From: a virus
Taxonomy: Duplodnaviria > Caudoviricetes
Reading direction: 5' to 3' (one strand)
Length of the DNA stretch: 53,720 nt
Virus record (IMG/VR): IMGVR_UViG_3300035204_001410
Span: 1-53,720 of that record
Shown: in pieces, positions 28,902 to 43,702 of the stretch
How positions within the stretch are numbered: the first letter of the stretch is position 1
Layout: every line of letters begins with the position of its first letter
Made by a program: the position numbers and the translations under genes
The notes under the pieces: generated by a model
Seen by the model: only the letters and a program-made list of their open reading frames with translations
What the model was told of the DNA's origin: nothing
The model's database searches: none

Positions 28902-28902
28902 T

Positions 28903-29526
28903 CTAAAGCTTTATGTTATTTAGCTTTTTTGTATACAAAAAAACAACGCATGAACCATATTTTTTAAATTCTTTTACTTTAGTAAAATGATCACTGTATT
29001 TTGTTATAAATTTTCTTTGGTATTGAGCTACACCATAGTTAAAATCCATCAAAACTAATACTGTCTCGCCGGGTATCCAATACGGTGAGAAGGTTTTAAT
29101 TGCGTAAGAAAATAATTTTTCCGATTTACATACATCATCCATATAAAGCTCTATAACTCCATTATCCCATTGAGAATCTCGAATATCTTGTACTTTATGA
29201 TATTTGATATTCGGGTTTATAGGGTTTAGATAATCTTGAACGATGGGTAAGGTGTCTTGTCCAAGCTTTAGGTGGACCCCTTGTTTTTTTGCTTTTATTA
29301 TCTCTGTTTCTCCCACTCTATCCTTGGCGACATAGAACCTATCAAATAAATGTATATCAGTGTTCTTACCGGCCTCTGCAAGCGCTTTAGCCACGGGTTC
29401 AATAGATCCTCCTAGCCAAGACCCAAGTTCAACAACGCAACCATTTCCAGTAAGACTTTTTCCAAGCTCGTAACAATACTCTGCGACTTTTTTATTATTT
29501 TGAGATGGTATTTTAGATTTATACAT
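28903..29526 (-). CDS. Class I SAM-dependent methyltransferase
   Basis: VVELGSWLGGS, LFDRF. Confidence 0.78.
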   Translation of the reverse strand: MYKSKIPSQNNKKVAEYCYELGKSLTGNGCVVELGSWLGGSIEPVAKALAEAGKNTDIHLFDRFYVAKDRVGETEIIKAKKQGVHLKLGQDTLPIVQDYLNPINPNIKYHKVQDIRDSQWDNGVIELYMDDVCKSEKLFSYAIKTFSPYWIPGETVLVLMDFNYGVAQYQRKFITKYSDHFTKVKEFKKYGSCVVFLYTKKLNNIKL

Positions 29527-30919: not shown

Positions 30920-30922
30920 AAT

Positions 30923-31780: not shown

Positions 31781-31795
31781 AATATAAATTTATTT

Positions 31796-32656: not shown

Positions 32657-32835
32657 TTCACTACTGGCTTCCAAACAAATTCATTTATATCAGGATCAAA
32701 TACTTTTTTGTATTTTTTCCCATCCTCTTTCCACATGTAAATTACTTTCTCTTTATCTATTTCGCCTTGACCGGGTCTTCTGCTCAAGTAGTCATAATAG
32801 TCTTCCCCTTGACCAGTATGAAGGTTATCACTCAT
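32653..32835 (-). CDS. Hypothetical protein, leaderless, first gene of the glycan operon
   Basis: TTGACG-17-TAGTAT-6-ATG (32842-32870). Confidence 0.6.
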   Translation of the reverse strand: MSDNLHTGQGEDYYDYLSRRPGQGEIDKEKVIYMWKEDGKKYKKVFDPDINEFVWKPVVK

Positions 32836-33376: not shown

Positions 33377-33422
33377 TGGTACAATATAACACAGATTAGG
33401 TTGCTTGTCAAGTGGTTTTTGT

Positions 33423-33632
33423 CTACCACTCAGGATATTCTTGTGCATCGTGCCACGCTTCGTCTGCGTATGAACCACAATCATCATCCAAAGTGTATTC
33501 AGCCAGAAAAGGTGTCGTAGGCAGATGCCCCACGCGCTCCAAAGATGGGGTTTCTGTTGGAACTTCTATTCCCTCGCATACTTGGTCGAGAAGTCGTTGG
33601 GTTTCTGGGTCAAAGTCAGGTCCGTTTTTCAT
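33423..33632 (-). CDS. Acidic hypothetical protein, near-leaderless
   Basis: MKNGPDFD start 8 nt after the -10. Confidence 0.7.
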   Translation of the reverse strand: MKNGPDFDPETQRLLDQVCEGIEVPTETPSLERVGHLPTTPFLAEYTLDDDCGSYADEAWHDAQEYPEW

Positions 33633-33665
33633 AATATAATAATATAACACAAGTTAAAGCATTTG

Positions 33666-33974
33666 TCAATCGATTTTTTCATATACTGTATGAGAACTTA
33701 ACCCCACTTCTTCTTTTTCATCTTCCCAATAGTATCCCTCTGGAGGCATGACTTCATCAAGGGCAGTACCTTTAGCTTGACTGATGATATAGGGCTTAAT
33801 CTCGTTCATATCAACGTTTCCCCATTCATTCTCAAAGCCCATCACAAGACCAAAGGCGATGCCGTTTTCGTCTGTCTCTCCGAGGTAATATTCCCAAAAG
33901 TTTTTTAGAATGATATGCTGGTGAACGGCGAAAGGTTCGCCACCTTGGTTGCTGATGATGTTTCTCGGTTTCAT
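33666..33974 (-). CDS. DUF2958-like protein, leaderless
   Basis: WEYY....D...AFGLVMGFENEWG.V...E. Confidence 0.65.
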   Translation of the reverse strand: MKPRNIISNQGGEPFAVHQHIILKNFWEYYLGETDENGIAFGLVMGFENEWGNVDMNEIKPYIISQAKGTALDEVMPPEGYYWEDEKEEVGLSSHTVYEKID

Positions 33975-34013
33975 TGTTACAATATAACACAGAAACGAAT
34001 GCTTGTCAAGTGT

Positions 34014-34085
34014 TGTGAATAACTTTCTGAAAAATAGGGGGGGTAAGTTGGCATACGACGTGCGGCAGCTTCCATGCCAAGTTAC
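34014..34085. repeat. Intergenic element copy E1
   Basis: TGTGAATAACTT-18-TAAGTT-29bp core-AAGTTAC. Confidence 0.9.
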
Positions 34086-34153
34086 TAGTCAATCATTGCT
34101 TTGTGCATAAGTAAAATGACAATGCCTGTCCAAATAATATAAAAAGTTTCCAT
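34085..34153 (-). CDS. 22-aa hydrophobic micropeptide
   Basis: METFYIIWTGIVILLMHKAMID; abuts the upstream gene stop and ends TAG TAA at element E1. Confidence 0.5.
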   Translation of the reverse strand: METFYIIWTGIVILLMHKAMID

Positions 34154-34381
34154 TTATATATCTTCGTTTAGTTCACTAATCAAGTGAGCGATTGTTTGAA
34201 GTGTTTTAGATGGGTCTGGTGATTGTCGTATCATCACAGCCATAACTAGTATTGGGTCATAATCTGATTTGCTACACTCCCTCCATTGGCCTACTTCTTT
34301 TACCCATAACGCAGATTGCCTTGTCCTGCTGTTTTGAAATATGGCAAAGTCTGGTGCTTTCTTATCCATACCATTCATTAC
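34154..34381 (-). CDS. Hypothetical protein
   Basis: ORF coupled to the upstream gene; start uncertain. Confidence 0.6.
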   Translation of the reverse strand, partial: VMNGMDKKAPDFAIFQNSRTRQSALWVKEVGQWRECSKSDYDPILVMAVMIRQSPDPSKTLQTIAHLISELNEDI

Positions 34382-34557
34382 ACGTACCATCTCCCGTTCA
34401 TATACATTGGGCCTTGCGGAAGCTCAATGTTTGTCACGGTATCTTTGACAATCGTAGCTTTTGCCTGAAGGTCAGCACGTAGCTTTTTCGCTTCTTCTGC
34501 TGTGGCTCGCAAAGAAACAATCTCTGCTTCGAGGGGTAGGTTTTTTTCGTTGTTCAT
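34378..34557 (-). CDS. Hypothetical coiled-coil protein, leaderless
   Basis: MNNEKN start 7 nt after the -10. Confidence 0.7.
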   Translation of the reverse strand: MNNEKNLPLEAEIVSLRATAEEAKKLRADLQAKATIVKDTVTNIELPQGPMYMNGRWYV

Positions 34558-34610
34558 TAGATACAATATAACACAGGTTGTAGGTTTTGTCAAGGGCCGT
34601 AATGACTTTT

Positions 34611-34775
34611 TTATTCCATTTCCCGCCAGCTTTCGCCATCGTCGTAAGAAATCAAATCCAATGCGTGAATCACGATTGCCTCTTGTCCAGCATAATCAAA
34701 GCTGTGTACTTCATACTCTATGCCGTCTACCACGGCGTTTCCGTTTTCGTTTAGTTCTATGTCGTTCATAATCAT
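34611..34775 (-). CDS. Acidic hypothetical protein
   Basis: TGGTATATT-6-ATG without a consensus -35. Confidence 0.6.
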   Translation of the reverse strand: MIMNDIELNENGNAVVDGIEYEVHSFDYAGQEAIVIHALDLISYDDGESWREME

Positions 34776-34813
34776 GTGTCTAATATACCATAGGGGGTGA
34801 GACATCCGTAGTC

Positions 34814-35014
34814 CTACCATTCACTTTTTATCATTAAACTTTTCAGCATTTTAATCCGTCTTGGTGGGATATCCCCACCTTGCGGAAGGCTAGGGTAATG
34901 CTCTACCTCTACCCAACCATTAACGGGATGCCTTGGGCTCAGGTCGCTAGTGACGATTCCCAACCATGCACCATTGTCACGGTGACGCACTTTAGTTCCT
35001 GCCTTAATCTTCAT
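34814..35014 (-). CDS. Small SH3-like hypothetical protein, leaderless
   Basis: MKIKAGTKVRH..GIV..; ATG 6 nt after the -10. Confidence 0.65.
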   Translation of the reverse strand: MKIKAGTKVRHRDNGAWLGIVTSDLSPRHPVNGWVEVEHYPSLPQGGDIPPRRIKMLKSLMIKSEW

Positions 35015-35064
35015 TGGTACAATATAACATACAAAAGGGTGTTTGTCAAGGGGTGAGGTACGAT

Positions 35065-35126
35065 TGTGAATAACTTTTTTCGGGTAAGTTGGCATGCGGC
35101 GTGCGGCAGCTTCCATGCCAAGTTAC
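35065..35126. repeat. Intergenic element copy E2
   Basis: TGTGAATAACTT-8-TAAGTT-29bp core-AAGTTAC. Confidence 0.9.
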
Positions 35127-35130
35127 TAAT

Positions 35131-35180
35131 TAAAAAGGCGCAGCGAGCGAAAACATGAAAAAACTCGCTGCACCCTTTTT
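35131..35180 (-). terminator. Probable (bidirectional) terminator after the hydrolase gene
   Basis: aaaaagg-cgcagcgag...ctcgctgc-acccttttt. Confidence 0.6.
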
Positions 35181-35182
35181 GC

Positions 35183-35716
35183 TCACCGTAATTTGTAGAA
35201 TAGATGCCGACCAATTCGTGCAACGGGTAGTTTACCTTTTGTCCAATACGGGCGCACACCGATAGCGTGGTAATGATCTGCAAATCCAGTAAATTTACGA
35301 TTGATAAGTGGTGGTGCTAGACTGGCTAATTGCATAGCAACCTTACCCTCATTCGATGCCCACAACATTGCTGGCGGCACTGGGATACGTCCATTATTCC
35401 AACAAGAGAATTGTTTTCTTTGCAAGCAAACTTGATGCGGTTGTAATTTCCTGTTTATAGCCCTTTGTTGTATAACAGCTAGAACAGCATGCATACCAAC
35501 AGCACCCTCTCCACGAGCTTCACCAAGTAAGGTTAAAGCAACGATCTGTATTGGTGATAAGCCTAGCCTATAAACTGGATGAACAGGTAAGGCAGGTCTT
35601 GGAGTATATGTTGGTTTTGGGTAGTTACTAGGCAAAACCCTAGGTTTAGGTTGTGCAAGAGCGACAGTGCAAACTATAAACACTAGCACCGTAATAATCA
35701 TCCAATGTTTTTTCAT
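35183..35716 (-). CDS. Cell wall hydrolase (SleB/Hydrolase_2) with signal peptide, leaderless
   Basis: TLLGEARGEG..GM.AV..VI..R, QFSCWN, ADHYHA..V.PYW, IGRHLFY. Confidence 0.9.
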   Translation of the reverse strand: MKKHWMIITVLVFIVCTVALAQPKPRVLPSNYPKPTYTPRPALPVHPVYRLGLSPIQIVALTLLGEARGEGAVGMHAVLAVIQQRAINRKLQPHQVCLQRKQFSCWNNGRIPVPPAMLWASNEGKVAMQLASLAPPLINRKFTGFADHYHAIGVRPYWTKGKLPVARIGRHLFYKLR

Positions 35717-35742
35717 AATTTTAGTATAAAGGTTTTTTTAAT

Positions 35743-35907
35743 TTAGTCAAGGGTTTTTTTGTTTATCTTTTTGTATTCAGCCCAAATCTTTTTATGCCAC
35801 TCTTTATAAGCGTCACTTTCAAGGGCTTCACTCATTTCTTTTTTACGTCTCAAGTAAAACTCTTTACTTGTTTCGTTTTTGTTGAATCTCCTATTCTCGT
35901 ACTTCAT
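35743..35907 (-). CDS. Small basic hypothetical protein (54 aa)
   Basis: MKYENRRF; ATGA overlap with the upstream stop. Confidence 0.55.
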   Translation of the reverse strand: MKYENRRFNKNETSKEFYLRRKKEMSEALESDAYKEWHKKIWAEYKKINKKTLD

Positions 35908-36209
35908 GAAAGTAATTCAGAAGGAGGAGAAGTAGCAAGGCCAGAGTTAGGCAATGGTGGCAACTTTGGTAACGGCAACGGTGGCAACGGTGGTAATTGT
36001 ACTTTTGCGATTGGGCTGGAAAGCGAATTCTCGTTTACCGCGAAATGCTTCCTCAAGATGGGAATTGCTTTCTTGATGTTATAAAGCCGATAAGCCTCGG
36101 CTTTAGCCTCTCCGTGAGTCTGCCCCAACTTCTTGGCGGCAATGATGTGGTTGGTTACTTGTGCCGCTTTAACGGCGTTCTTTGCTTGGTAGGTTTTGTA
36201 GGTTTTCAT
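35904..36209 (-). CDS. Hypothetical protein with Pro-rich C-terminus, leaderless
   Basis: MKTYKTYQ start 7 nt after the -10. Confidence 0.7.
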   Translation of the reverse strand: MKTYKTYQAKNAVKAAQVTNHIIAAKKLGQTHGEAKAEAYRLYNIKKAIPILRKHFAVNENSLSSPIAKVQLPPLPPLPLPKLPPLPNSGLATSPPSELLS

Positions 36210-36248
36210 TAGATATAATATAACACAGGTTAGGTTGATTGTCAATAG

Positions 36249-36428
36249 TTAAACGAAATAAATTTGATGAATAATTACAAACCCTAATGCGAGGGATGCG
36301 CCCAAACAGGCAGAAATAATCCACTCGCAATAACGAATTTGTTTCTTGCAACGGGAGATGTCGGCTTGCAGTTCGAGGTTGCTGCGTTGTTGTTTGTAGC
36401 TGGTGTAGGTTTCTTTAATTGCTTTCAT
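36249..36428 (-). CDS. 59-aa tail-anchored membrane protein, leaderless
   Basis: MKAIKETY...WIISACLGASLALGFVIIHQIYFV; ATG 6 nt after the -10. Confidence 0.7.
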   Translation of the reverse strand: MKAIKETYTSYKQQRSNLELQADISRCKKQIRYCEWIISACLGASLALGFVIIHQIYFV

Positions 36429-36463
36429 TAGTATAATATAACACAGGTTAGTGGGTTTGTCAA

Positions 36464-36667
36464 CTAAAATGTTCTATGTTTTAAGTCTTCGGGTGTGGTG
36501 GTTGGTGGTCGCCAACCCTCATCACACTTACAATACTTCGGACAATCATCCTCTGCGCTTCCCTCTTTTGCTACTGTCTCGTGACAGGTAGGACACAGAA
36601 ACAATTGCCTAATCGCTGGATGATCCAAGCAGAATCGCTTTGTTAATGGGCCGAATTTAGTTGTCAT
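36464..36667 (-). CDS. Small Cys-rich (Zn-binding) protein
   Basis: CPTC...CPKYCKC. Confidence 0.6.
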   Translation of the reverse strand: MTTKFGPLTKRFCLDHPAIRQLFLCPTCHETVAKEGSAEDDCPKYCKCDEGWRPPTTTPEDLKHRTF

Positions 36668-36825
36668 ACTAATTCTTTTGTTGCTGTTGGTTCCTTACCC
36701 TCTCGGACTAGGTTAACGTCGAAACAGACTGCGCTTAATAGTTTGCCCTTGTCTGCGTTTCGGTTGCTCGCAATAATTGCCATTGTGAAGATGAAATCGA
36801 TTGCTTTTGATTCTTTAACTGTCAT
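36664..36825 (-). CDS. Hypothetical protein (53 aa)
   Basis: MTVKESK; ATGA overlaps at both ends. Confidence 0.6.
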   Translation of the reverse strand: MTVKESKAIDFIFTMAIIASNRNADKGKLLSAVCFDVNLVREGKEPTATKELV

Positions 36826-37133
36826 TTTACTTCCTCATATACGGGGTTAGTCATACTTGCTCTAGTGCGGTACTCCCACTCTGGAGACATCACGCTAACA
36901 GGTTCCTCACCAGTTTGCACAAACAACTTGCCAACGGCATAATCTAGCCACCAACGCTTTTGTTGATTCCAGTAGAAGTCAATCGCTTTTTCCATATCGG
37001 CAACAAACTTCTGTGTCGCTGGTTTGTGCATACTACTAAAGTGAGCGCAGCACTCATCAAATCCATCCCAGCCAGTAGTTTCCTTTTTGCCTACGGCGTG
37101 AAGTTCAATATAGTAATGTTTTTCGTTTTCCAT
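36822..37133 (-). CDS. Hypothetical protein, leaderless
   Basis: MENEKHYY start 6 nt after the -10. Confidence 0.72.
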   Translation of the reverse strand: MENEKHYYIELHAVGKKETTGWDGFDECCAHFSSMHKPATQKFVADMEKAIDFYWNQQKRWWLDYAVGKLFVQTGEEPVSVMSPEWEYRTRASMTNPVYEEVK

Positions 37134-37164
37134 TGGTACAATATAACACACAAATGACGGTTTG

Positions 37165-37404
37165 TCAAACGATTTTTTTAACTTTCTTAAATCCGTTTTC
37201 GCAGTAGTCCGTAAGCCCTTGCTTGTTAATGAAATGCTCTGCCAATTCGTCAAAGTCATCCTCACCTGTTCCCATGTTGTTGGCGTGCTGCAATGCCCGA
37301 AACAAGCCGCAAGCCTCATAATGATCGTCGCAAGCCTTGGCGGCAGCGAGGTTCTGCTTACGGGTGGTGGGGACTACGTTTTGAAGTTTACCGTTCTTAA
37401 TCAT
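37165..37404 (-). CDS. Hypothetical protein, leaderless
   Basis: MIKNGKL start 6 nt after the -10; stop lies inside the next -35. Confidence 0.72.
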   Translation of the reverse strand: MIKNGKLQNVVPTTRKQNLAAAKACDDHYEACGLFRALQHANNMGTGEDDFDELAEHFINKQGLTDYCENGFKKVKKIV

Positions 37405-37443
37405 TAGTATAATATAACACAAGAACGTCACTTTGTCAAGCGT

Positions 37444-37506
37444 TGTGAATAACTTTTTTTAGGGTAAGTTGGTATGCGGCGTGCTGCAGCTCCCATGCCA
37501 AGTTAC
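37444..37506. repeat. Intergenic element copy E3
   Basis: TGTGAATAACTT-9-TAAGTT-29bp core-AAGTTAC; contains the stop codon of the upstream gene. Confidence 0.9.
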
Positions 37507-37907
37507 TCAACTCTTACTTGAATGTCACTGTCTAGGCCAAGCTGCTTTATTAGCTTCTTCGTTATTTCGTCTTTAGTTATTTCATGCCCTGATTTATCTT
37601 TTGGCTTATCGCCCATAACTTCCTCCCACGGCACATCAATACGCCAACCAAAGGGTAAACACTCATGCCACACACCGTCAATGTTAATGTAGTCACCCAC
37701 CATCATTGAACGAACATTAAGATTCAAGAACTGCTGTGACTCATTGCCTGATCCCGCATTCCATTGCTCCCAAACAAAGTCGAGAATCTCATGATCTGTG
37801 TATTCCCGTTCTGCGTTTGCGTCTAACATCCAATCATAACAGAATTGCCAATCAGAGGAAATCCGTTTGCTGGTGTCGTCGTGATATCTAACTGATACGT
37901 GTTTCAT
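37503..37907 (-). CDS. Hypothetical protein (RSMMVGD motif, YodL-like)
   Basis: VRSMMVGDYINIDGVWHECLPFGW resembles RS.SVGD families. Confidence 0.6.
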   Translation of the reverse strand: MKHVSVRYHDDTSKRISSDWQFCYDWMLDANAEREYTDHEILDFVWEQWNAGSGNESQQFLNLNVRSMMVGDYINIDGVWHECLPFGWRIDVPWEEVMGDKPKDKSGHEITKDEITKKLIKQLGLDSDIQVRVE

Positions 37908-37908
37908 G

Positions 37909-38475
37909 TTAATTACTTTCTTGCGCCTCTGGTGTTGGAACTTGCGCCCATACTTTTGTATGCCCATTCTCTGTGCCTGTCAAAATGACTTTGCGAGCAG
38001 TAAAGATAGGTTCAATCTTATCTTCAATACTACCACGAAAAGGATTAGTATCCTTCGTTACAAAGGTTCGATACTTATAAGGGTTATAAAGAACCTCGCG
38101 CCATTCGTAGCCTTCGCGCTCATCCATATACTGTTTTTCGAAATACTTACTTGCATCTTTGGCGTGACCCTTCTCAAACGCATCCATATCAGCATAAGCC
38201 CATACAGCATTAACTATGCAACCACGAATAACTGCATGGACATTTTTGCGCTGTTCATCACGCACGCGCTGATTCCCTTTCGGGCCTACGGCAAAGGTGA
38301 CAGGGTACTTGGTGTTACCGTCCATGATGACGGTATAGGCGTGACCCTCAACGAGTCCATCCGAGCATTTGCGCACAGAATAAACTGTTTCGTCTCTCCA
38401 GTTAAGATTGCGATAGACTTCCCGACGCATATGCGCCACGGCCTTTTTAGTGTCAGTGATATCGTGTAAAGGCAT
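37909..38475 (-). CDS. Conserved phage hypothetical protein
   Basis: VYRNL...RVRDEQRKNVHA.IRG...YNPYK..TFV pattern common in phages. Confidence 0.72.
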   Translation of the reverse strand: MPLHDITDTKKAVAHMRREVYRNLNWRDETVYSVRKCSDGLVEGHAYTVIMDGNTKYPVTFAVGPKGNQRVRDEQRKNVHAVIRGCIVNAVWAYADMDAFEKGHAKDASKYFEKQYMDEREGYEWREVLYNPYKYRTFVTKDTNPFRGSIEDKIEPIFTARKVILTGTENGHTKVWAQVPTPEAQESN

Positions 38476-38479
38476 AGGA

Positions 38480-38674
38480 TTAGTCTCCAAAAACATTCTC
38501 CCACTCTTCTGGAGTGATGCCTGTTTTAATGAACTCACGCTCATCTGCCGAGAGGTTCGGCATGGCGTTTTGAATGAGTTCGCCACCTTGCCAAGAAGCG
38601 ATCTGCTCCTCAGTAACGTCAATATCCATGACGTTTTTGTTACCACTGAATGGGGATTCTTTCTCGATCAACAT
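38480..38674 (-). CDS. Conserved phage hypothetical protein, leaderless
   Basis: LIQNAMPNLSADEREFIKTGITPEEW. Confidence 0.75.
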   Translation of the reverse strand: MLIEKESPFSGNKNVMDIDVTEEQIASWQGGELIQNAMPNLSADEREFIKTGITPEEWENVFGD

Positions 38675-38723
38675 AATATAATATACCACAAGAACGTTGC
38701 TTTGTCAAGGGGTTTTTTGCTTT

Positions 38724-39041
38724 TTATATCGCTTTCATGGGTAAGCGATGACCCTTCTTGAATTCGTCAAGACTCATGCTCCACACAGTCTCATCATGTT
38801 GCCCATGCTCACCCCAACGATGCACGATCTCTGCCTCACCAACAACACCACCAACGGCAGCAGCATCAGTAAGCAGCTGGTGCGCCTCTTTCAGTAGGGT
38901 GTTGAGACTGTCCCTGTTCTTCGGCAGCATATGGTGTCGGTCACCCAAGAACCAAAGCTCGTAGGTGTGCGTGGATAGACCAAGGTGCTGACGGACTGCT
39001 TCGGCTACTTGAGGAGAGGGGCTTGTTACTTCGATCTTCAT
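38724..39041 (-). CDS. Hypothetical protein, leaderless
   Basis: MKIEVTS start 6 nt after the -10. Confidence 0.7.
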   Translation of the reverse strand: MKIEVTSPSPQVAEAVRQHLGLSTHTYELWFLGDRHHMLPKNRDSLNTLLKEAHQLLTDAAAVGGVVGEAEIVHRWGEHGQHDETVWSMSLDEFKKGHRLPMKAI

Positions 39042-39092
39042 ACCTATAATATAACACCGAAACACCCTCCTGTCAAGGGCTGGCGGTACGAT

Positions 39093-39154
39093 TGTGAATA
39101 ACTTTTTCAGAGTAAGTTGGCATGCTCGCTGCTCCCGCGCCGACCACAAGTTAC
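39093..39154. repeat. Intergenic element copy E4
   Basis: TGTGAATAACTT-8-TAAGTT-29bp core-AAGTTAC; contains the stop codon of the upstream gene. Confidence 0.88.
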
Positions 39155-39294
39155 TGGCAGCCGCAACACGGCGCATCCTCACACCCACACCGTAGGCCGG
39201 GATCATCATACACAGGCTCGGCGTCGAGGTCATCTATCCACGCACACAGGTCGGCATGGTCATCGTCTGAAAACTGGCTATAATGATCGTTCAT
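39151..39294 (-). CDS. 47-aa acidic protein ending CGCEDAPCCGCQ, leaderless
   Basis: ATG 6 nt after the -10; not in the track. Confidence 0.7.
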   Translation of the reverse strand: MNDHYSQFSDDDHADLCAWIDDLDAEPVYDDPGLRCGCEDAPCCGCQ

Positions 39295-39341
39295 AATAAG
39301 AATATAACACGCAAAAGGCTATCTGTCAAGGGGAAAGTTAT

Positions 39342-39527
39342 TCACCACCCCCGTGTGTTCTCGCGTATAGAGTAGCTGCTCAAGTCTTGGTCTGTGAGCT
39401 TGTCCCATCCGCACTTACACTCACCGTACCACGTGCCACCCCACACCTTTGCACCGGGGTACTCTTGGAAGGGTGCTTCATACTCCATCTCGACGGGCGC
39501 ACCACATTTTTCGCATTTGATTTTCAT
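39342..39527 (-). CDS. Zinc-ribbon protein, leaderless
   Basis: CEKCG...CKCGW. Confidence 0.7.
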   Translation of the reverse strand: MKIKCEKCGAPVEMEYEAPFQEYPGAKVWGGTWYGECKCGWDKLTDQDLSSYSIRENTRGW

Positions 39528-39573
39528 TAGTTATAATATAACACAAAAGAATGTAACTGTCAAGTGATTTTAT

Positions 39574-39609
39574 AAAAAAAATGAGATGCTTCTTGTGAGG
39601 GTGCATCCC
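39574..39609 (-). terminator. Terminator closing the ncRNA candidate
   Basis: GGGATGC...GCATCTC-A-T8 on the minus strand. Confidence 0.7.
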
Positions 39610-40144
39610 AACCCACGACCACTTAAGTTTATTCTGGTTGGCCGCTTAACCGCGTTTAGGTTTCTTACTCGCTCCAGTTACCTTCAGGCTCATCGCGCCT
39701 GACCACGTTCCGACTTCACCCTCGGTGGGCTTGTGTTGTTGTTGCCTACTAGCGTTATTGCCAGCAGGGCGTGTTCTTGTTACCTCGCCACGGCTTCCCA
39801 CATTGCCGACAGAAGGATTACTTATCTGCGTCCGGTTGAGGCGAGGGTAAATTACTGCTGGTGTGAGGGGCTCGAACCCTCCCCCGTCCCTATCGTGTCA
39901 CCGTCTAGTTTCAATGCATCTCCACTAGGGGCTTTCAGCCACGGGCGGTATTGCGGTACTTGCCGCCTTATAGGCCCGATACCCGTAATGGGGCGGTAAC
40001 CGTGCGACAGAGGTTATAACCGAATACTTCCAGTCTCACCAACATAAAATGTGTTCTCCTAGTCGTCACGCTGTGTCAGCGAGGTCTTTGACACTTCGAG
40101 CTTCAAGCGTAGGTTTTCGGAGAACTAAACTTCTCTCAAAGAAC
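39574..40144 (-). ncRNA. Candidate large (~570 nt) structured non-coding RNA
   Basis: Consensus promoter 40151-40179 with no start codon at +1; no minus-strand ORF of 60 aa or more; many nested helices; terminal hairpin plus T8. Confidence 0.72.
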
Positions 40145-40360
40145 TACTATAATATACCACGGAAACACCCTTTTGTCAAGCGGTTTTTTAACTTTTTTTA
40201 ATTACCCTAATTAATCGCATTTAATTACCCCTAATTAGCCGCTCACAAATGATCGACAAATCAATTTGCCAACCAAAAAACGCAAAAAATGATCGACAAA
40301 GTTTCGTAAAAAGGGGTGTTTTCTCCGATGTGAAATTCGCTGTTTTTAAGAAACTGTCAG

Positions 40361-40426
40361 TAAGTTGTTAGTAACTTTCTCTGGTAAGTTGTGATCCGCG
40401 CGGGAGCACGCCCCATGCCAAGTTAC
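40361..40426. repeat. Intergenic element copy E5 (core inverted)
   Basis: TGTTAGTAACTT-7-TAAGTT-29bp core-AAGTTAC; core is 22/29 identical to the reverse complement of the E4 core. Confidence 0.85.
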
Positions 40427-40476
40427 TCGCGCCTGTTCCGAGTTACTTTCTTATGGGATGGGGTTTATTTCGATAT

Positions 40477-40659
40477 TTAATTGTTACTATTTAATCTAGC
40501 TTTTTCTGTAAAGCCTTCTTCGGAAAGGTAACAAGCAATATTTTCTAATTCTTCTTGAGTCAATGATTCGTCAGGAAAAATTATTTGTTGCTTGTCATAA
40601 TCTATTAATACAGTATTTCCATAAACGTTAATTTCTTCTATTTGATTTTGAGCTTTCAT
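40477..40659 (-). CDS. Hypothetical protein
   Basis: 60-aa ORF with YL.EEGF ending common in phage small proteins. Confidence 0.6.
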   Translation of the reverse strand: MKAQNQIEEINVYGNTVLIDYDKQQIIFPDESLTQEELENIACYLSEEGFTEKARLNSNN

Positions 40660-40807
40660 TATCGATTAGTCTTTGCATTATATCTTCCCAGCGTTGCCTG
40701 TCTAATCCAATTTCATCTTCGTTTAACTGTATTGGTAACATTTCCCAAAAGCTAGTTTGCGAAAAGGTTTGAATTAGGTTCAGCCGGTCTTTGTCTGTTA
40801 TATTCAT
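40628..40807 (-). CDS. Hypothetical protein
   Basis: MNITDKDRL. Confidence 0.55.
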   Translation of the reverse strand: MNITDKDRLNLIQTFSQTSFWEMLPIQLNEDEIGLDRQRWEDIMQRLIDNESSKSNRRN

Positions 40808-40809
40808 GA

Positions 40810-40881
40810 TTATAATTTTCTCCACATCTGTATTCCTAAGGCTATGATGCCTATAAACAAAAGTATGGTTATAATTTCCAT
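40810..40881 (-). CDS. 23-aa hydrophobic micropeptide
   Basis: MEIITILLFIGIIALGIQMWRKL with AAGGA upstream. Confidence 0.55.
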   Translation of the reverse strand: MEIITILLFIGIIALGIQMWRKL

Positions 40882-40895
40882 GGGGATCCTTTCTG

Positions 40896-41633
40896 TTATG
40901 CTGTTGCTAGTTGTTGTTTGTTTGCTTTTTTGATTGCTGACAACGCCACGCTTGCCACACTACCCTTGGGCTGCGTACCATGAATCAACAACGCAAAATT
41001 CTCTTTACCAAATGCTGCGTGTGTGTCGTCGTGGTCAATTTCCAAGTCACGCTCTTTTGCTTCTTGCTCGCTGTAAACGACAAGAGCTTCTTTCCATCCG
41101 TGCAAATCAATTAGCTCGTCGTGCTTGCCACCACGGGAAGCAGTTAAAACTAAATTTTCGGGAAGGGCAAACTGTTTGAAGAAATGCAAGCTCTTGGAAT
41201 AAGAGTAAAACACTTTGTCGGGATTCCTTTTGGCAACTTCAATCCACGCTTGCAAATACTTGGCGTTAAAATAATCACCGCCAACGTGAACGCGCATAAT
41301 GTCGAACTTTTTTGGAAGTGATTCGCAAATCAAATCCGCGCAAGCATCGACACCATCCACAAGTGAATCTTTTAGCAAGCCAAGGTTATGCCAAACCATT
41401 TTTCGCAATGATGGATACGTTGCTTCTGCACTAGCAGCAAAACAACGAAACTGCGTGTCAGGCCCATCTTGAATCTTGCCCGTTTGCCTATCTGCACGCG
41501 ACAAACAATCTTTTGCACCGGGGCAAGTATGCCCTGCGGGAAGCGTAAAGGTTTTGAGGGTTAGGCCGAGCTTCCGAATCATTTTCTTGAGCTTGGAGTT
41601 CGGATCTCCAAATCGTAGTAGGTTGTTGTTCAT
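40896..41633 (-). CDS. GP88-family protein, leaderless
   Basis: NSKL, FTLPAGHTCPGAKDC...CFA, RVHVGGDYF, YSYSK. Confidence 0.75.
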   Translation of the reverse strand: MNNNLLRFGDPNSKLKKMIRKLGLTLKTFTLPAGHTCPGAKDCLSRADRQTGKIQDGPDTQFRCFAASAEATYPSLRKMVWHNLGLLKDSLVDGVDACADLICESLPKKFDIMRVHVGGDYFNAKYLQAWIEVAKRNPDKVFYSYSKSLHFFKQFALPENLVLTASRGGKHDELIDLHGWKEALVVYSEQEAKERDLEIDHDDTHAAFGKENFALLIHGTQPKGSVASVALSAIKKANKQQLATA

Positions 41634-41664
41634 AATAACAATATAACACAGGTTTTGGGTTTTG

Positions 41665-42126
41665 TCAAACGGTTTGTAATCTGCTGCGTTGGCTTGCAGC
41701 GTTTTGCTTATATTCTTCTTCATCAAACGCCCTTACTTGAGCAGGGTTTTCTCTTGCCTCTGTACGGCCTATCGAATAATCATAAACGATTGGATCAGTA
41801 GACACAAACGCTTCGGAATTTTCCTTTAGTTCTTCCATACGTCGATTTGCAAGCCTTTGAGCCTCGCTCTTAACGCCGCCTTTTTCTCCCTTGAATCTGT
41901 TAGGGTACTTGTTAAGAAGTAAATGCAATGACGAGTTGAAAAAATACTTTTCTAGCTTTTCTTCACTGGTGGTAATATAAGCAAACGTATCACACATCCA
42001 ATGTAGTCCTCCGCCCGTTGCTTGGTGGTTCCAGAAGGAATAATACTGTTCTATAATTTTTTGTTCATCATTAGATTCAATACCTACGAGAGCAACTGTT
42101 CCGAGTGGTTGATATACGAGTTTCAT
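41665..42126 (-). CDS. Hypothetical protein, near-leaderless
   Basis: ATG 9 nt after the -10; stop lies inside the next -35. Confidence 0.72.
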   Translation of the reverse strand: MKLVYQPLGTVALVGIESNDEQKIIEQYYSFWNHQATGGGLHWMCDTFAYITTSEEKLEKYFFNSSLHLLLNKYPNRFKGEKGGVKSEAQRLANRRMEELKENSEAFVSTDPIVYDYSIGRTEARENPAQVRAFDEEEYKQNAASQRSRLQTV

Positions 42127-42153
42127 AACTAATACAATATAACACGTAAAAGG

Positions 42154-42309
42154 CTATCTGTCAAGGGGTTTCTGATGTTTTTTTCTACGACGAAAAGACC
42201 CTTTACCCTTTCTCACGCGATGTTCCCTAGATGCACTACCCATAAGTCCGTCTTTGTTCACTCGCGCGCGAGGGTGGGCGCGTTGGTTTCTTTGTCTTTT
42301 CCTTTTCAC
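42154..42309 (-). CDS. ArfA-like basic peptide (51 aa, GTG start, leaderless)
   Basis: RVRKGKGSFRRRKKH matches the ArfA KKGKGSYxRKxKH signature. Confidence 0.6.
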   Translation of the reverse strand: MKRKRQRNQRAHPRARVNKDGLMGSASREHRVRKGKGSFRRRKKHQKPLDR

Positions 42310-42348
42310 AATAACAATATACCACAAGAACATCACTTTGTCAAGGGT

Positions 42349-42421
42349 TGTGAATACTTTGTTAATAACTTTCTCAGGGTAAGTTGGCATAAAAGCTGCC
42401 GCACGCCGCATGCCAAGTTAC
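42349..42421. repeat. Intergenic element copy E6 (core inverted, box duplicated at 11 bp)
   Basis: Core is 27/29 identical to the reverse complement of the E2 core. Confidence 0.9.
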
Positions 42422-42438
42422 CACAAAAACTTACTCAC

Positions 42439-42462
42439 AAAAAAACCCCGCGCATGGCGGGG
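42439..42462 (-). terminator. Rho-independent terminator
   Basis: CCCCGC-CATGC-GCGGGG followed by T7. Confidence 0.82.
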
Positions 42463-42483
42463 TGTGCTGGTAGGTTATTAGCG

Positions 42484-43374
42484 TTATTCCGTAACGGTCA
42501 CAACCACATCCTTCTCCTTCGCGGGAGTCCAGAGCTTTTTCAAGCGGTTAGGGTTGCGAGCAGCAAGGTCAAAACGCCGCAGCACGTTAGTAGTGACACG
42601 GTTGGCATACTCAAAACGAGAGTCAGCAACCTCATGCGTAACGTGTTGAGTCACGGCATTGTTAAGGTTGTAAAGGTTGCGAGCCTTATCCTCATCGTGT
42701 GTAGGGTTAACCCAGATTTTTGCAATCTCCTCGCGTAGCTTTTCAGAGATAACCTTGCCTTGGGTGAGAGTCTTGAGAATGTTCAAGCCCTGTTCTTCGC
42801 TCAAGTCAACTTGAGCCAAACGACCATAAACGCTGACACTATCCTTGAGCTTGGCAAGAGCATTGTCAAGCGCGTCATCAGTGACAAGGTCAGCAATGTT
42901 TAGTTGTTTGGAGTGCTTTTTCACCATGTCCACCTCTTTTTCGGTGGTGGTCATACCGTTGGTGCAAACGAGACGAACCAAGCCAAGCGCAAACGAAACA
43001 CGCAAGGAACGGTCAAACGAGTTTTGTGCCGTCAAGCGGTAAGCCATAACGTCACCCACTTGCGGTACTTCAGACTGAAACAGGTCGCCACCTAAATCAT
43101 ACTGCGCTCGCATTTTCGCGCCACCTTCAGTGACAATCACCTTGCGAGTAACGTCGATACCGCGAGCCTCAAAAGCCTCATCGGCACGGGCAAGAACGTC
43201 ACGGTGATTCACAAGACCGTAACGCTCTGAAGTCCAACCCAGAATCTCGTTGTTGTCCTCACGGACGTTCATAAAATAGCCAGACTTACCGCCTTTTACT
43301 GGGTGAGGAACCTCCACTTGGTTCACGGTGAAATCGAAATCAGTGTTAATGGATTGTTTTGCTGCGATACTCAT
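42484..43374 (-). CDS. DUF932/DUF945-family protein
   Basis: VSERY.LV.H-like segment, NSFDRS...GLVRLVCTNG, LYNLNNAVT. Confidence 0.82.
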   Translation of the reverse strand: MSIAAKQSINTDFDFTVNQVEVPHPVKGGKSGYFMNVREDNNEILGWTSERYGLVNHRDVLARADEAFEARGIDVTRKVIVTEGGAKMRAQYDLGGDLFQSEVPQVGDVMAYRLTAQNSFDRSLRVSFALGLVRLVCTNGMTTTEKEVDMVKKHSKQLNIADLVTDDALDNALAKLKDSVSVYGRLAQVDLSEEQGLNILKTLTQGKVISEKLREEIAKIWVNPTHDEDKARNLYNLNNAVTQHVTHEVADSRFEYANRVTTNVLRRFDLAARNPNRLKKLWTPAKEKDVVVTVTE

Positions 43375-43444
43375 TTTTTTCTTTCTGTTAAGGGTTAGTT
43401 TCTTTCGCTTTGTTACTTATAATATACCACAATTTTTAAGAAAG

Positions 43445-43663
43445 TCAAGGCGTAAAAGTGATTTTCTTAAACTTTTTTCTAGTTGACACGCAGCCCTCGC
43501 ATTCACAACCCTCAAGCACTAGGGACAGACTCAATTTTTCGTTAGGAGTTAACCCTTCAAGCGGGGGAGCGGCACAAGTCAGGCACTTACCGTTGTTTTC
43601 CTTAAGCAGTAAGGCGTCATTGCCGCACTGATTGCAAGGTTCAAAGGTGGTTTGCGTTGTCAT
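43445..43663 (-). CDS. Cys-rich Zn-binding protein, leaderless
   Basis: CNQC, CLTC, CECEGC. Confidence 0.65.
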   Translation of the reverse strand: MTTQTTFEPCNQCGNDALLLKENNGKCLTCAAPPLEGLTPNEKLSLSLVLEGCECEGCVSTRKKFKKITFTP

Positions 43664-43702
43664 TGTTACAATATACCACAAGAATGTCGCTTTGTCAAGG
43701 GT

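What the first reader, a model, noticed from the sequence alone, without database searches (positions are those of the whole stretch)
39574..40144. ~570-nt ornate non-coding RNA candidate with a tRNA-like domain, own promoter and terminator
Seen: this is the only class A promoter (40151-40179) not followed by a start codon. The transcript is GC-richer than its flanks, has no ORF of 60 aa or more, and ends in a hairpin plus T8. Minus-strand helices found by eye: TGTTGGTG (40037-44) with CACCAGCA (39856-63); a D-arm-like ACTG/CGGT; CTCTGTCG (40005-12) with CGATAGGG (39888-95); GTTACCG with CGGTGAC, closing a multi-branch junction; a T-arm GAGGG-TTCGAGC-CCCTC (39865-81); GTTCTCC/GGAGAAC; GTGTCA/TGACAC; TTACC(C)TCGCC/GGCGAGGTAA. 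Many pairs are G-U, which suggests selection at the RNA level. The central domain looks like a tRNA elbow with a hugely expanded anticodon arm, yet it is neither a tRNA nor a recognisable tmRNA. Inference: a phage large ncRNA, either GOLLD/ROOL-like or a new class.
Basis: partly seen in the sequence, partly recalled or inferred. Interest (0 to 1): 0.82.

Follow-up and report, generated by a model that had tools for sequence, protein, structure and literature searches.

The report
Phage noncoding RNA with tRNA-like module
An uncultured ocean phage transcribes a roughly 570-base RNA that codes for no protein and is built from separately conserved folded modules, one of them an apparently undescribed tRNA look-alike that recurs in more than a hundred marine virus sequences.

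Summary
The region is real non-coding RNA, but it is a chain of modules rather than one ornate RNA. Promoter 40151-40179 is the only one of 18 consensus promoters in the window with no start codon directly after it.

The centre (39857-40043, minus strand) is a 123-195 nt tRNA-like element. It has a 7-bp acceptor-like stem, a stemless UGG loop, a T-arm and three further helices, and no anticodon arm. I found it in 107 marine metagenome stretches and 13 IMG/VR contigs. It was absent from 185,579 prokaryote species genomes and from cultured phages. Covariation supports it. Rfam and ARAGORN do not recognise it.

Downstream lies a second unlisted motif, a three-way junction with 16 of 19 pairs compensatory. 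In relatives, the known manA RNA takes this place.

GOLLD/ROOL membership fails.

The mechanism is inferred, not shown. An early multi-module precursor is probably cut at conserved AAUUUA linkers and by RNase P, releasing a stable tRNA mimic. RNA-library contigs cover parts of the region but show no RNA ends.

The parts
40151..40179 (-). Sigma-70-type promoter TTGACA-17-(TG)TATATT. The inferred transcript start is at about 40144/40145.
   Evidence: Promoter scan, 11 of 12 matches. It is the only one of 18 such promoters without a start codon 5-9 nt after the -10 hexamer. The start position is inferred from the spacing seen at the 17 leaderless genes.
40050..40144 (-). Leader module M1. It has a conserved 5' end (GUUCUUUGAGA), a closing helix 40125-40119/40059-40053, an inner helix 40110-40106/40072-40068 and a variable tip hairpin 40094-40089/40078-40073.
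   Evidence: nhmmer hits in relatives. Alignment of 10 distinct sequences shows GUUC..GAAC changing to GUCC..GGAC and tip hairpins being replaced. GTTCTTTGAGA after a promoter occurs once in the window. Coordinates.
40044..40049 (-). 5' linker UUUUAU. Family consensus is A(A/U)UUUAU, with U at -1 in 59 of 68.
   Evidence: Flank logo over 68 unique cores.
39857..40043 (-). tRNA-like element (TLD), 187 nt. One copy in the window.
   Evidence: Model R1 scores 104.3 bits over 39849-40049. Family covariation.
40037..40043 (-). P1 5' strand GUUGGUG. It pairs with 39863-39857 (CACCAGC) to form the acceptor-like stem.
   Evidence: 95.8% of cells paired and 5 of 7 pairs with changes on both sides across 81 distinct sequences.
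40028..40036 (-). Stemless D-loop-like joint AGACUGGAA. UGG sits 4 nt after P1.
   Evidence: TGG is invariant in 68 of 68 sequences although it was in no search pattern. Found by regex in 78 of 81; two of the three exceptions lack the 5' part.
39948..40027 (-). P2: helix GUAUU/AAUAC (40027-40023 / 39952-39948) closing a lineage-specific insertion of about 70 nt.
   Evidence: A helix of 4 bp or more at this anchored position in 68 of 78 sequences, against 20% of shuffles; 37 distinct helices. The insertion is absent in the 123-nt forms.
39938..39946 (-). P2b: small hairpin GCC-CGU-GGC (tentative).
   Evidence: Equivalent hairpin CCUG-ACG-CAGG in class B. Only 1 pair has changes on both sides.
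39903..39936 (-). Conserved GAAAGC (39936-39931) followed by hairpin P3, with inner stem CUAG/CUAG at 39928-39925 / 39908-39905.
   Evidence: P3 of 4 bp or more in 74 of 78 sequences, against 22% of shuffles; 19 distinct helices. GAAAGC is kept in 13 of 13 IMG/VR elements found without requiring it.
39891..39902 (-). Fixed block GGUGACACGAUA.
   Evidence: GGTGAYACGATA is kept in all 13 IMG/VR elements found by a pattern that required only its first five bases, GGTGA. In the metagenome set it was part of the query pattern.
39865..39881 (-). T-arm: stem GAGGG/CCCUC with loop UUCGAGC.
   Evidence: Stem covaries as CG 34, AU 22, GC 10 at one pair. Coordinates.
39848..39856 (-). A at the discriminator position (39856) followed by linker GUAAUUUA. 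Family consensus is A-R-C-A-A-U-U-U-A.
   Evidence: A at +1 in 64 of 68. At +2, C occurs in only 3 of 68. C at +3 in 53 and A at +4 in 59.
39780..39850 (-). Module M3a, a three-way junction. S1 is 39847-39840/39789-39783, S2 is 39829-39825/39813-39809 with loop UAAGUAAUCCU, and S3 is 39807-39805/39794-39792.
   Evidence: 34 sequences (32 distinct), 89.6% paired against 78.4% in shuffles, 16 of 19 pairs compensatory, 0 of 500 shuffles reach the score.
39684..39779 (-). Variable spacer. It is missing or shortened in L014 and L002.
   Evidence: Alignment and nhmmer hit ranges.
39574..39683 (-). 3' module M3c with terminal hairpin 39609-39603/39589-39583 and T8 at 39581-39574.
   Evidence: 9 distinct homologues. 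The hairpin covaries (GGGAUGC/GCAUCCC, GAGAUGC/GCAUCUC, GAGACGC/GCGUCUC). Some relatives end in ACAAUUUAA instead of a T-run.
40196..40300 (.). Direct repeats upstream of the promoter: 40196-40218/40220-40242 and 40247-40260/40287-40300. Possibly a regulator-binding site.
   Evidence: the repeat finder. A similar sequence is present in L014.

Best explanation
SHOWN
- The interval is a non-coding transcription unit in the early-type, promoter-dense region of an uncultured marine phage of roughly 150 kb.
- It is a string of separately conserved RNA modules: a leader (M1), a tRNA-like element (TLD), a three-way-junction motif (M3a), a variable spacer and a 3' module (M3c) ending in a hairpin plus T8.
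- The TLD copies the top half of a tRNA: a 7-bp acceptor-like stem stacked on a 5-bp T-stem, and a canonical UUCGAR(Y) T-loop.
- A UGG lies 4 nt after the acceptor strand with no D-stem. From recall of the E. coli sequence, this is the layout of the tRNA-like domain of tmRNA.
- In place of an anticodon arm it has a variable hairpin P2, a small hairpin P2b, a hairpin P3 and fixed single-stranded blocks (GAAAGC, GGUGAYACGAUA).

INFERRED
1. Host RNA polymerase makes the precursor early in infection.
2. The precursor is cut at the conserved A/U-rich linkers (AAUUUAU before the TLD, ARCAAUUUA after it and after other modules).
3. RNase P cuts at U(-1)/G(+1). Together these release a stable 125-190-nt tRNA mimic plus the neighbouring module RNAs.
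4. With no anticodon and an RCA rather than CCA tail, the mimic cannot decode. It most likely occupies or diverts a host or defence factor that recognises the tRNA elbow and acceptor end.

My odds: structured multi-module ncRNA with a genuine tRNA-like fold, about 0.9. Excision into separate RNAs, about 0.5. A decoy or hijack role, about 0.25.
For: NON-CODING
- No conserved frame on either strand. The longest ORF within the element varies from 6 to 57 aa on the sense strand and 0 to 56 aa on the antisense strand. Core lengths spread over all three residues mod 3.

TRANSCRIPTION UNIT
- Consensus promoter, unique in lacking a start codon, with a hairpin plus T8 at the end.
- Contigs from 4 RNA libraries of 4 studies lie on 39599-39947 and 40148-40189. 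They are 92-381 nt long. One carries a class-B T-arm joined to the same 3' modules.

FAMILY
- 107 metagenome stretches and 13 IMG/VR contigs, giving 70 unique cores.
- All 83 bearers scanned score 58-156 bits with model R1, and 0 of 7 relatives lacking the pattern score.
- Only one weak, spurious hit in 762 kb of unrelated viral DNA.

STRUCTURE
- 85.5% of cells paired against 73.0% in shuffles. Covariation score 0.305 against 0.126, reached by 0 of 500 shuffles. Slid controls give 35-48% paired.
- P2 and P3 are kept by 37 and 19 different helices.
- UGG is invariant without being in any search pattern.

MODULARITY
- Stand-alone TLDs lie 6-10 nt after a promoter in L017, L044, L104, L059 and L116. 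L017 ends ...CACCAAC-ACCA-T7.
- M3a is adjacent in 18, further downstream in 11 and absent in 35 of 64 unique TLDs with enough downstream sequence.
- manA RNA follows the TLD in L016, L023, L031, L040, L041 and L047.
- The L010-type RNA shares only the leader.

LINKERS
- U at -1 in 59 of 68. The A-R-C-A-A-U-U-U trailer is conserved.
- The same ACAAUUUAA ends module M3c in relatives and precedes M3a in abundant RNA-library contigs (table 7).

COPY NUMBER
- One TLD in a complete 158-kb phage genome.
Against: - No RNA 5' or 3' ends were observed. Contigs cannot show them, and an RNA library can contain DNA. Processing is therefore pure inference.
- One RNA-library contig runs uninterrupted from the T-arm through M3a into M3c (record 1). 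That fits an uncut precursor or DNA.
- Genuine tRNAs in the same loci do not share the TLD's flanks, and 13 of 14 end in an encoded CCA. The TLD need not follow the tRNA maturation route.
- The linker also follows non-tRNA-like modules, so a nuclease other than RNase P may do all the cutting.
- No partner protein is fixed next to the element; contexts vary.
- Folding energies are not distinguishable from shuffles, except weakly for the TLD at z = -2.12.
- P2b rests on one compensatory pair.
- Class A and class B differ at many linked positions, so tertiary contacts could not be resolved.
- The host is unknown.
Confidence: 0.6

Rival explanations
1. The tRNA-like element is only a cis-acting punctuation signal. 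Like plant mitochondrial t-elements or the mascRNA at the end of MALAT1, it recruits RNase P and 3' nucleases to give defined ends to the neighbouring RNAs (leader, M3a, manA). It has no function of its own after excision.
For: It sits between other conserved RNA modules and directly before manA or M3a in many loci. It has a tRNA-like acceptor/T-arm with U at -1.
Against: Stand-alone copies exist with their own promoter and nothing to mature on either side. Three extra helices and fixed single-stranded blocks (GAAAGC, GGUGAYACGAUA) are kept in all elements found. That is far more than a processing signal needs.
Confidence: 0.17
2. The whole transcript of about 570 nt acts as one large ornate RNA, functionally like GOLLD or ROOL. 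It would possibly multimerise, with the tRNA-like part as an internal domain.
For: One promoter and one terminator frame the whole unit. The full leader-TLD-M3a-M3c order recurs in L080, L086, L078, L100, L053 and L002. GOLLD and ROOL are phage RNAs found near tRNA islands, and GOLLD linkers sometimes hold tRNAs (PMC12286853, passages read).
Against: Modules recombine freely, and the TLD class is swapped within otherwise similar units. Stand-alone TLDs exist. No hit to the GOLLD or ROOL models. Self-complementary loop sequences are not above chance.
Confidence: 0.12
3. It is a cis-regulatory leader (riboswitch-like) controlling the downstream small genes from 39527 onward.
For: manA, which shares this locus in relatives, is filed in Rfam as cis-regulatory. 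Genes follow on the same strand.
Against: The next gene has its own consensus promoter at 39563-39535 and is leaderless. A hairpin plus T8 separates them. Downstream content differs between loci.
Confidence: 0.05
4. It is a degenerate or intron-containing tRNA, or a tmRNA.
For: An acceptor-like stem, a T-arm and A at the discriminator position.
Against: ARAGORN finds nothing in the window or at the element in 14 relatives. There is no Rfam tRNA or tmRNA hit at E up to 10. There is no anticodon stem-loop in the 123-nt forms and no G3:U70. There is no room for a tag frame, and CCA is not encoded in 65 of 68.
Confidence: 0.03
5. The region encodes small proteins: the minus-strand 33- and 51-aa frames or the plus-strand 88-aa frame.
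For: These frames exist in the window. One antisense frame is open over 96 nt in 64 of 80 relatives.
Against: No frame of constant length or start is kept. Substitutions are compensatory in stems. Indels are not multiples of three. All neighbouring genes and promoters are on the minus strand.
Confidence: 0.03

Closest known systems
tRNA-like domain of tmRNA (SsrA)
   Same: Acceptor stem stacked on a T-arm, and a stemless D-loop with UGG 4 nt after the acceptor strand. A long helix leaves the junction where the anticodon arm would be. The spacing comparison with E. coli tmRNA is from recall; the features of this element are.
   Different: No G3:U70 (position 3:70 is UA 41, CG 21, GC 11, UG 5). 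No encoded CCA in 65 of 68. No tag reading frame or pseudoknot ring, and only 123-195 nt long. ARAGORN and the Rfam scan give no tmRNA hit.
Phage T4 species 1 and species 2 stable RNAs (rnaC, rnaD)
   Same: Phage-encoded stable RNAs of about 120-140 nt and unknown function, lying in the tRNA gene cluster (annotation). rnaC ends in a T-arm-like CCGGG-UUCGAAU-CCCGG (sequence read).
   Different: By eye I saw none of the conserved blocks (GAAAGC, GGTGAYACGATA) in rnaC; no alignment was run. blastn of the element against 50,697 phage records found nothing. Processing of the T4 RNAs by RNase P is recalled, not checked here.
manA RNA motif (Rfam RF01745)
   Same: A marine-phage structured RNA. In relatives it lies directly after the tRNA-like element, or fills the body of the equivalent transcript. 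It was described from marine metagenomes and T4-like cyanophages (PMC2864571, passages read).
   Different: It is a different fold and is not present in this window. It is filed as a candidate riboswitch in 5' UTRs. Here it is co-transcribed with other ncRNA modules.
GOLLD and ROOL large phage RNAs
   Same: Phage-encoded non-coding RNAs of unknown function found near tRNA genes (PMC12286853, passages read).
   Different: No model match. This RNA is modular, and its parts occur alone.
t-elements of plant mitochondria and mascRNA of MALAT1
   Same: tRNA-like folds inside longer transcripts that serve as RNase P / RNase Z cleavage signals. For t-elements I saw only the search listing and abstract of PMC1920247. 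mascRNA is recalled.
   Different: Those are eukaryotic or organellar and carry no extra conserved helices. Cleavage was not tested for this element.
YrlA (bacterial Y RNA-like)
   Same: A bacterial and phage RNA with a tRNA-like T-arm/D-arm module (recalled).
   Different: From recall, the termini of YrlA lie in the anticodon-stem equivalent and its acceptor stem is closed. Here the acceptor stem holds the ends. No Rfam hit was obtained.

Membership tests
tRNA | Cloverleaf with an anticodon stem-loop, detectable by tRNA finders | tested here: not met
   ARAGORN found 0 genes in the window and none at the element in 14 loci. No RF00005 hit at E up to 10. The 123-nt forms have no anticodon arm.
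tRNA | 7-bp acceptor stem stacked on a 5-bp T-stem, with a UUCRANY T-loop and a GG partner | tested here: met
   P1 and the T-stem covary. The T-loop is UUCGA[AG][UC] and UGG is invariant.
tRNA | 3' CCA end, encoded as in the genuine tRNAs of these phages | tested here: not met
   The trailer is A-R-C-A, with C at +2 in 3 of 68. 13 of 14 genuine tRNAs in the loci end in CCA.
tmRNA | G3:U70 alanine identity pair | tested here: not met
   Pair 3:70 is UA 41, CG 21, GC 11, UG 5, other 1 across 81 distinct sequences (2 with a gap at this pair).
tmRNA | Internal tag reading frame and pseudoknots | tested here: not met
   Elements of 123-195 nt have no room for them. ARAGORN tmRNA search was negative.
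tmRNA | Stemless D-loop with GG facing the T-loop | tested here: met
   UGG lies 4 nt after P1 and no D-stem is conserved.
GOLLD / ROOL | Match to the Rfam covariance models | tested here: not met
   0 matches at gathering score over the window. Nothing at E up to 10 over 39400-40300.
manA RNA (RF01745) | Match to the Rfam covariance model | tested here: not met
   No hit in the window. Hits of 59.7-77.5 bits in 7 related loci: L016, L023, L026, L031, L040, L041 and L047.
RNase P substrate (pre-tRNA-like) | Cleavage 5' of the acceptor stem by RNase P | not testable with these tools
   Only the sequence prerequisites are seen: acceptor/T-arm stack, U at -1 in 59 of 68 and A at 73 in 64 of 68.
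T4 species 1 RNA (rnaC) | Sequence similarity to rnaC | tested here: not met
   No blastn match of the element in the phage collection that holds T4. By eye I saw none of the conserved blocks in rnaC.

The most novel reading that the evidence does not exclude
The tRNA-like element is a new class of phage-made tRNA mimic. It is cut out by the host's tRNA-processing enzymes. It deliberately carries a purine at position 74 (RCA instead of CCA) and has no anticodon. It can therefore engage factors that read the tRNA elbow and 3' end (a tRNA-end-targeting defence toxin, an aminoacyl-tRNA-using enzyme, SmpB or EF-Tu) without entering translation. On this reading it is an RNA-based early anti-defence or takeover tool. 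The long-orphan manA motif and the new M3a motif would be sister cargo RNAs of the same processed early precursor, rather than riboswitches.
Probability: 0.25. Interest if true: 0.85.

Novelty: new variant of a known kind. Interest (0 to 1): 0.7.

Why it matters
- **Two apparently undescribed motifs.** tRNA mimicry by non-coding RNAs is known (tmRNA, Y-RNA-like RNAs, viral tRNA-like ends). Here there is a well-populated, apparently uncatalogued family (more than 100 environmental copies, strong covariation) confined to uncultured marine phages, plus a second uncatalogued three-way-junction motif beside it.
- **A new context for manA.** The known manA RNA has been a candidate riboswitch since 2010 without a ligand. 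In this lineage it sits in the same ncRNA cassette array, co-transcribed with a tRNA-like RNA. That context argues for a trans-acting or processed RNA and makes the question testable.
- **A testable early transcript.** The unit is driven by the one promoter among 18 that does not start a leaderless mRNA. The phage therefore invests an early, strong promoter in RNA alone. If the mimic diverts a host tRNA-binding factor or defence nuclease, it would be an RNA-only counterpart to the phage tRNAs recently linked to anti-defence.
- **Caveat on novelty.** A 2023 catalogue of 10,006 candidate viral structured RNAs from IMG/VR (PMC10690425; passages read, supplements closed) may already list these motifs without description.

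Tried and rejected
DATABASE AND FINDER SEARCHES WITH NO RESULT
- Rfam at gathering score over the window: 0 hits. At E up to 10 over 39400-40300: only two chance hits, PVT1_2 and sR36.
- ARAGORN: nothing.
- blastn of the region, of a class-B element and of a manA copy against 50,697 phage records: no match.
- Model R1 on P-SSM2, Syn9 and S-RSM4: no real hit; the best was 11.5 bits at E 0.7. manA is present only in P-SSM2.

STRUCTURE TESTS THAT DID NOT HELP
- Single-sequence folding energies are not informative. RNAalifold on the raw MAFFT alignment recovered only P1 and the T-stem, because the variable hairpins misalign.
- The mutual-information scan for tertiary pairs was dominated by the class A / class B split, so no contact could be assigned.
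- Kissing-loop dimer idea from self-complementary P3 loops (AUGCAU, GCGC, UGCA, GAUAUC): 12 of 22 distinct loops have no palindrome, and the rest are not above shuffles, apart from AUGCAU at 0.04.

PATTERN SCANS THAT WENT ASTRAY
- TTATGTTGGTGAN{3,4}TGG gave chance matches. In the 80 loci returned, R1 found one weak hit (L148, 23.8 bits) that lacks a T-loop and was judged spurious.
- GGTTCGANNCCN{3,4}CACCNNNANCAATTT mostly pulled genuine tRNAs. It also pulled tRNA-negative ends of the form CACCTCCACCA-ATTT, which I took from recall to be tmRNA 3' ends.

RNA LIBRARIES
- Only small shares of the sampled words were held.
- In the 4 runs laid, nothing lay on 39000-39598, 39948-40147 or 40190-40800. 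This is not evidence of absence.
- Contig ends at 39856 and 39947 coincide with boundaries of sequence variation and were not read as RNA ends.

OTHER
- tmRNA tag reading: a frame from GCA in the P2 insertion ends ...AESP at the P3 UAG. It is absent from short forms, so it was rejected by eye.
- Supplements of PMC10690425 and PMC2864571 could not be consulted.
Full report
**Source and setting.** The window is an IMG/VR virus record of 53,720 bases, estimated 35% complete. Its genes include rIIA and a clamp-loader-like protein. It also encodes a T4-type terminase, a tubulin/FtsZ-like protein, a sigma-70 region 2 protein, PhoH and a sugar-nucleotide gene cluster, plus an ORF of at least 2,979 aa. 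The rIIA protein is at most about 25% identical to those of cultured phages, so this is an uncultured lineage. Related contigs reach 136-158 kb. All sequences found with the element's pattern come from marine-type metagenomes.

**Checking the observation.**
- The promoter at 40179-40151 (minus strand) is a perfect TTGACA, 17 nt, TG-TATATT site.
- A script listed 18 such sites on the minus strand. In 17 of them a start codon (16 ATG, 1 GTG) lies 5-9 nt after the -10 hexamer, with no Shine-Dalgarno sequence. These genes look leaderless.
By the same spacing, its transcript should start at about 40144/40145.
- GC content is 0.52-0.565 inside the unit, against 0.35-0.43 immediately outside.
- The unit ends in a 7-bp hairpin with a 13-nt loop followed by A and T8.
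- The minus strand has no ORF above 51 aa. The plus strand has an 88-aa frame.
- Folding energy is not distinguishable from shuffled sequence for the whole RNA (z = -1.37). The same holds for three of the four modules; the tRNA-like part reaches only z = -2.12. Whether the structure is 'more than chance' had to be settled by comparison.

**Known families.** Rfam 15 gave no match at gathering score over the window. At E up to 10 over 39400-40300 there were only two chance hits. ARAGORN found no tRNA or tmRNA. blastn against 50,697 phage records found nothing.

**Relatives show a mosaic.**
- Loci carrying the upstream GP88-family gene, plus a first T-arm pattern, gave partial matches.
- L014 matched almost the whole RNA. 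L002 matched only positions 209-569. L013 and L015 matched only the central ~94-299. L007, L010 and L012 matched only the first ~93 nt.
- In L010 the same promoter and leader are followed by a different non-coding body of about 660 nt.
- The 570-nt unit is therefore assembled from parts that occur separately.

**Distribution of the tRNA-like element (TLD).**
- A degenerate pattern found 11 IMG/VR loci. A second pattern found 0 stretches in one genome each of 185,579 bacterial and archaeal species and 107 stretches in metagenome contigs.
- Parsing gave 70 unique cores, 68 of them 123-195 nt long.
- A covariance model built from 20 of them scored all 83 representatives scanned at 58-156 bits, one copy each. 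It scored none of the 7 related loci that lack the pattern.
- It produced only one weak, spurious hit in 762 kb of unrelated viral DNA.
- A complete 158-kb genome with terminal repeats holds exactly one copy. A 79%-complete relative holds none.

**Structure of the TLD.** On the model-fitted alignment, 85.5% of cells pair, against 73.0% after shuffling. The covariation score is 0.305 against 0.126, reached by 0 of 500 shuffles. Sliding the partners drops pairing to 35-48%.

| Feature | Window coordinates | Support |
|---|---|---|
| P1, acceptor-like stem GUUGGUG/CACCAGC | 40043-40037 / 39863-39857 | 95.8% paired, 5 of 7 pairs compensatory |
| T-arm | 39881-39865 | Stem covaries; loop is the canonical UUCGA[AG][UC] |
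| UGG joint, no D-stem | 40036-40028 | UGG 4 nt after P1, invariant in 68 of 68, in no search pattern |
| P2, variable hairpin | 40027-39948 | 4 bp or more in 68 of 78 (20% of shuffles); 37 distinct helices |
| P2b, small hairpin (weak) | 39946-39938 | 1 compensatory pair |
| GAAAGC | 39936-39931 | Kept in 13 of 13 IMG/VR elements |
| P3 hairpin | 39928-39905 | 4 bp or more in 74 of 78 (22% of shuffles); 19 distinct helices |
| GGUGAYACGAUA | 39902-39891 | Kept in 13 of 13 IMG/VR elements |

- The two fixed blocks were part of the metagenome query, so their invariance there is circular. A last scan required only GGTGA plus the T-arm and acceptor strand, not the rest of that block or GAAAGC. 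It recovered 13 true elements in IMG/VR, and all 13 keep both blocks.
- The window's element is among the longest (187 nt). Its extra ~70 nt is an insertion in P2; the shortest forms are 123 nt.
The MFE fold of the single sequence also picks them. They are not maintained in relatives.
- No reading frame is conserved on either strand.

**The neighbouring modules.**
- *Leader M1 (40144-40050).* It keeps GUUCUUUGAGA at the 5' end, a closing helix (GUUCUCC/GGAGAAC, shortened with a compensatory change to GUCC/GGAC in relatives), an invariant inner helix and a replaceable tip hairpin. Within the window, the leader motif behind a promoter occurs only here.
- *M3a (about 39850-39780).* A three-way junction with conserved loops. 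In 34 sequences, 89.6% of cells pair against 78.4% in shuffles, and 16 of 19 pairs show changes on both sides. 0 of 500 shuffles reach the score. A strict M3a pattern is absent from the prokaryote genomes and occurs in 2 IMG/VR contigs, both already known.
- *Coupling of M3a to the TLD.* Among 64 unique TLDs with enough downstream sequence, M3a is adjacent in 18, further downstream in 11 and absent in 35.
- *M3c (39683-39574).* Nearly invariant in 9 distinct homologues. Its terminal hairpin covaries, and some relatives replace the T-run by ACAAUUUAA.
- *manA.* Rfam finds the known manA RNA (RF01745) directly or closely after the TLD in L016, L023, L031, L040, L041 and L047. It also finds it inside the L010-type RNA. 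Genuine tRNA genes lie nearby on the same strand in several loci.

**Boundaries.**
- The six bases before P1 are A(A/U)UUUAU, with U at -1 in 59 of 68.
- After P1 come A (64 of 68), then R, C, A, A, U, U, U, A.
- The same ACAAUUU string ends M3c in relatives. It also precedes M3a in abundant RNA-library contigs with otherwise unrelated upstream sequence (table 7).
- In five kinds of locus the TLD starts 6-10 nt after a consensus promoter. In L017 it ends ...CACCAAC-ACCA followed by T7, so it is a free-standing gene there.
- Genuine tRNAs of these phages end in encoded CCA (13 of 14) and lack these flanks. The TLD has C at the first CCA position in only 3 of 68.

**Expression.**
- Twenty marine RNA-library runs hold small shares of the region's sampled words.
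- Contigs of four runs from four studies were laid. They cover 39599-39947 and 40148-40189 and are 92-381 nt long. Word depths reach 88.9 and 47.6 on the M3a segment. One contig joins a class-B T-arm to the same 3' modules.
- This is compatible with abundant RNA. It does not prove transcription and shows no RNA ends.

**Interpretation.**
- *Shown:* a promoter-to-terminator non-coding unit made of at least four conserved structured modules. Two of them (TLD, M3a) are absent from Rfam 15. The TLD has a genuine tRNA-type acceptor/T-arm/elbow.
- *Inferred:*
  - The unit is expressed early. It shares the host-type promoter of the 17 leaderless small genes around it.
  - It is processed at the A/U-rich linkers, which resemble RNase E sites (recalled consensus), and by RNase P at U(-1)/G(+1).
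  - The excised element acts as a tRNA mimic that cannot decode.
- I cannot say which factor it engages. Candidates are proteins that read the elbow and the 3' end.
- *Rivals:* a pure punctuation signal, a single large RNA, a cis-regulator, a true tRNA or tmRNA, and small proteins. Each is weighed in its own section of this report.

**Comparison with known kinds.**
- The element works most like the tRNA-like domain of tmRNA in architecture, but fails tmRNA membership. It has no G3:U70, no tag frame and no model hit.
- It is analogous in size and setting to T4 species 1 RNA, which also ends in a T-arm, but shares no detectable sequence with it.
- It is not GOLLD or ROOL.
- Searches of the paper library found no description of it. 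The term sets were 'tRNA-like / bacteriophage / noncoding RNA / marine / covariation', 'phage-encoded / tRNA-like / decoy / anti-defense / acceptor stem', and manA terms.
- The 2023 catalogue of 10,006 viral candidate RNAs (PMC10690425; passages read) may contain it in supplements that I could not open.

**Verdict.** This is a real finding of above-average interest. Its centrepiece is a new family of phage tRNA mimic, accompanied by a second new motif and, in relatives, by the orphan manA RNA.

Noticed in passing
window 33383-43698, minus strand: 17 of 18 consensus TTGACA-17-TATATT promoters are followed by ATG or GTG 5-9 nt after the -10 hexamer, with no Shine-Dalgarno sequence. The small early-type genes of this phage appear to be expressed as leaderless mRNAs.
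   Followed up: partly
window 40196-40300: Two pairs of direct repeats lie just upstream of the ncRNA promoter: 23 nt at 40196/40220 and 14 nt at 40247/40287. An inverted repeat bridges 40163-40174 and 40310-40321. This may be a regulator-binding site.
   Followed up: no
L016:1307-1483, L023:5900-6078, L031:1654-1834, L040:6377-6558, L041:7834-8012, L047:1034-1212, L026:1345-1523: The manA RNA motif (RF01745), filed as a cis-regulatory riboswitch candidate, sits directly after the tRNA-like element, or inside the equivalent non-coding transcript, in relatives. It seems to be one cassette of an ncRNA array rather than a 5' UTR.
   Followed up: partly
L049 (tip of P2); L100, L050, L007/L010 (tip of leader M1): The same mini-hairpin, GGTGCTGGGTTACAGGCC, is inserted at the tips of two different RNA modules in different loci, as if it were a portable hairpin.
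   Followed up: no
window 15391-16548; 23198-23836; 23833-24531; 26105-32674; 3-8939: The phage encodes a tubulin/FtsZ-family protein, a SET-domain protein, a sigma-70 region 2 protein and a block of sugar-nucleotide, sulfotransferase and methyltransferase genes. It also has an ORF of at least 2,979 aa that runs off the window.
   Followed up: no
L116:5273-5346, L092:2908-2981, L016:343-416, L023:4940-5013: A tRNA-Cys gene lies 90-730 nt upstream of the tRNA-like element on the same strand in several loci.
   Followed up: no
loci L258-L334 (IMG/VR): A pattern for a T-arm plus CACC...A.CAATTT pulled many viral contigs with tRNA 3' ends. Of the 77 loci, 32 gave no ARAGORN tRNA call; most of those printed read CACCTCCACCA-ATTT, which I recall as the tmRNA 3' end. 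They may be prophage attachment sites.
   Followed up: no
TLD P3 loop, window 39924-39909: P3 loops of the short types differ by linked changes that keep a self-complementary core (GCGC, UGCA, AUGCAU). Over all 22 loop types this is not above chance.
   Followed up: yes
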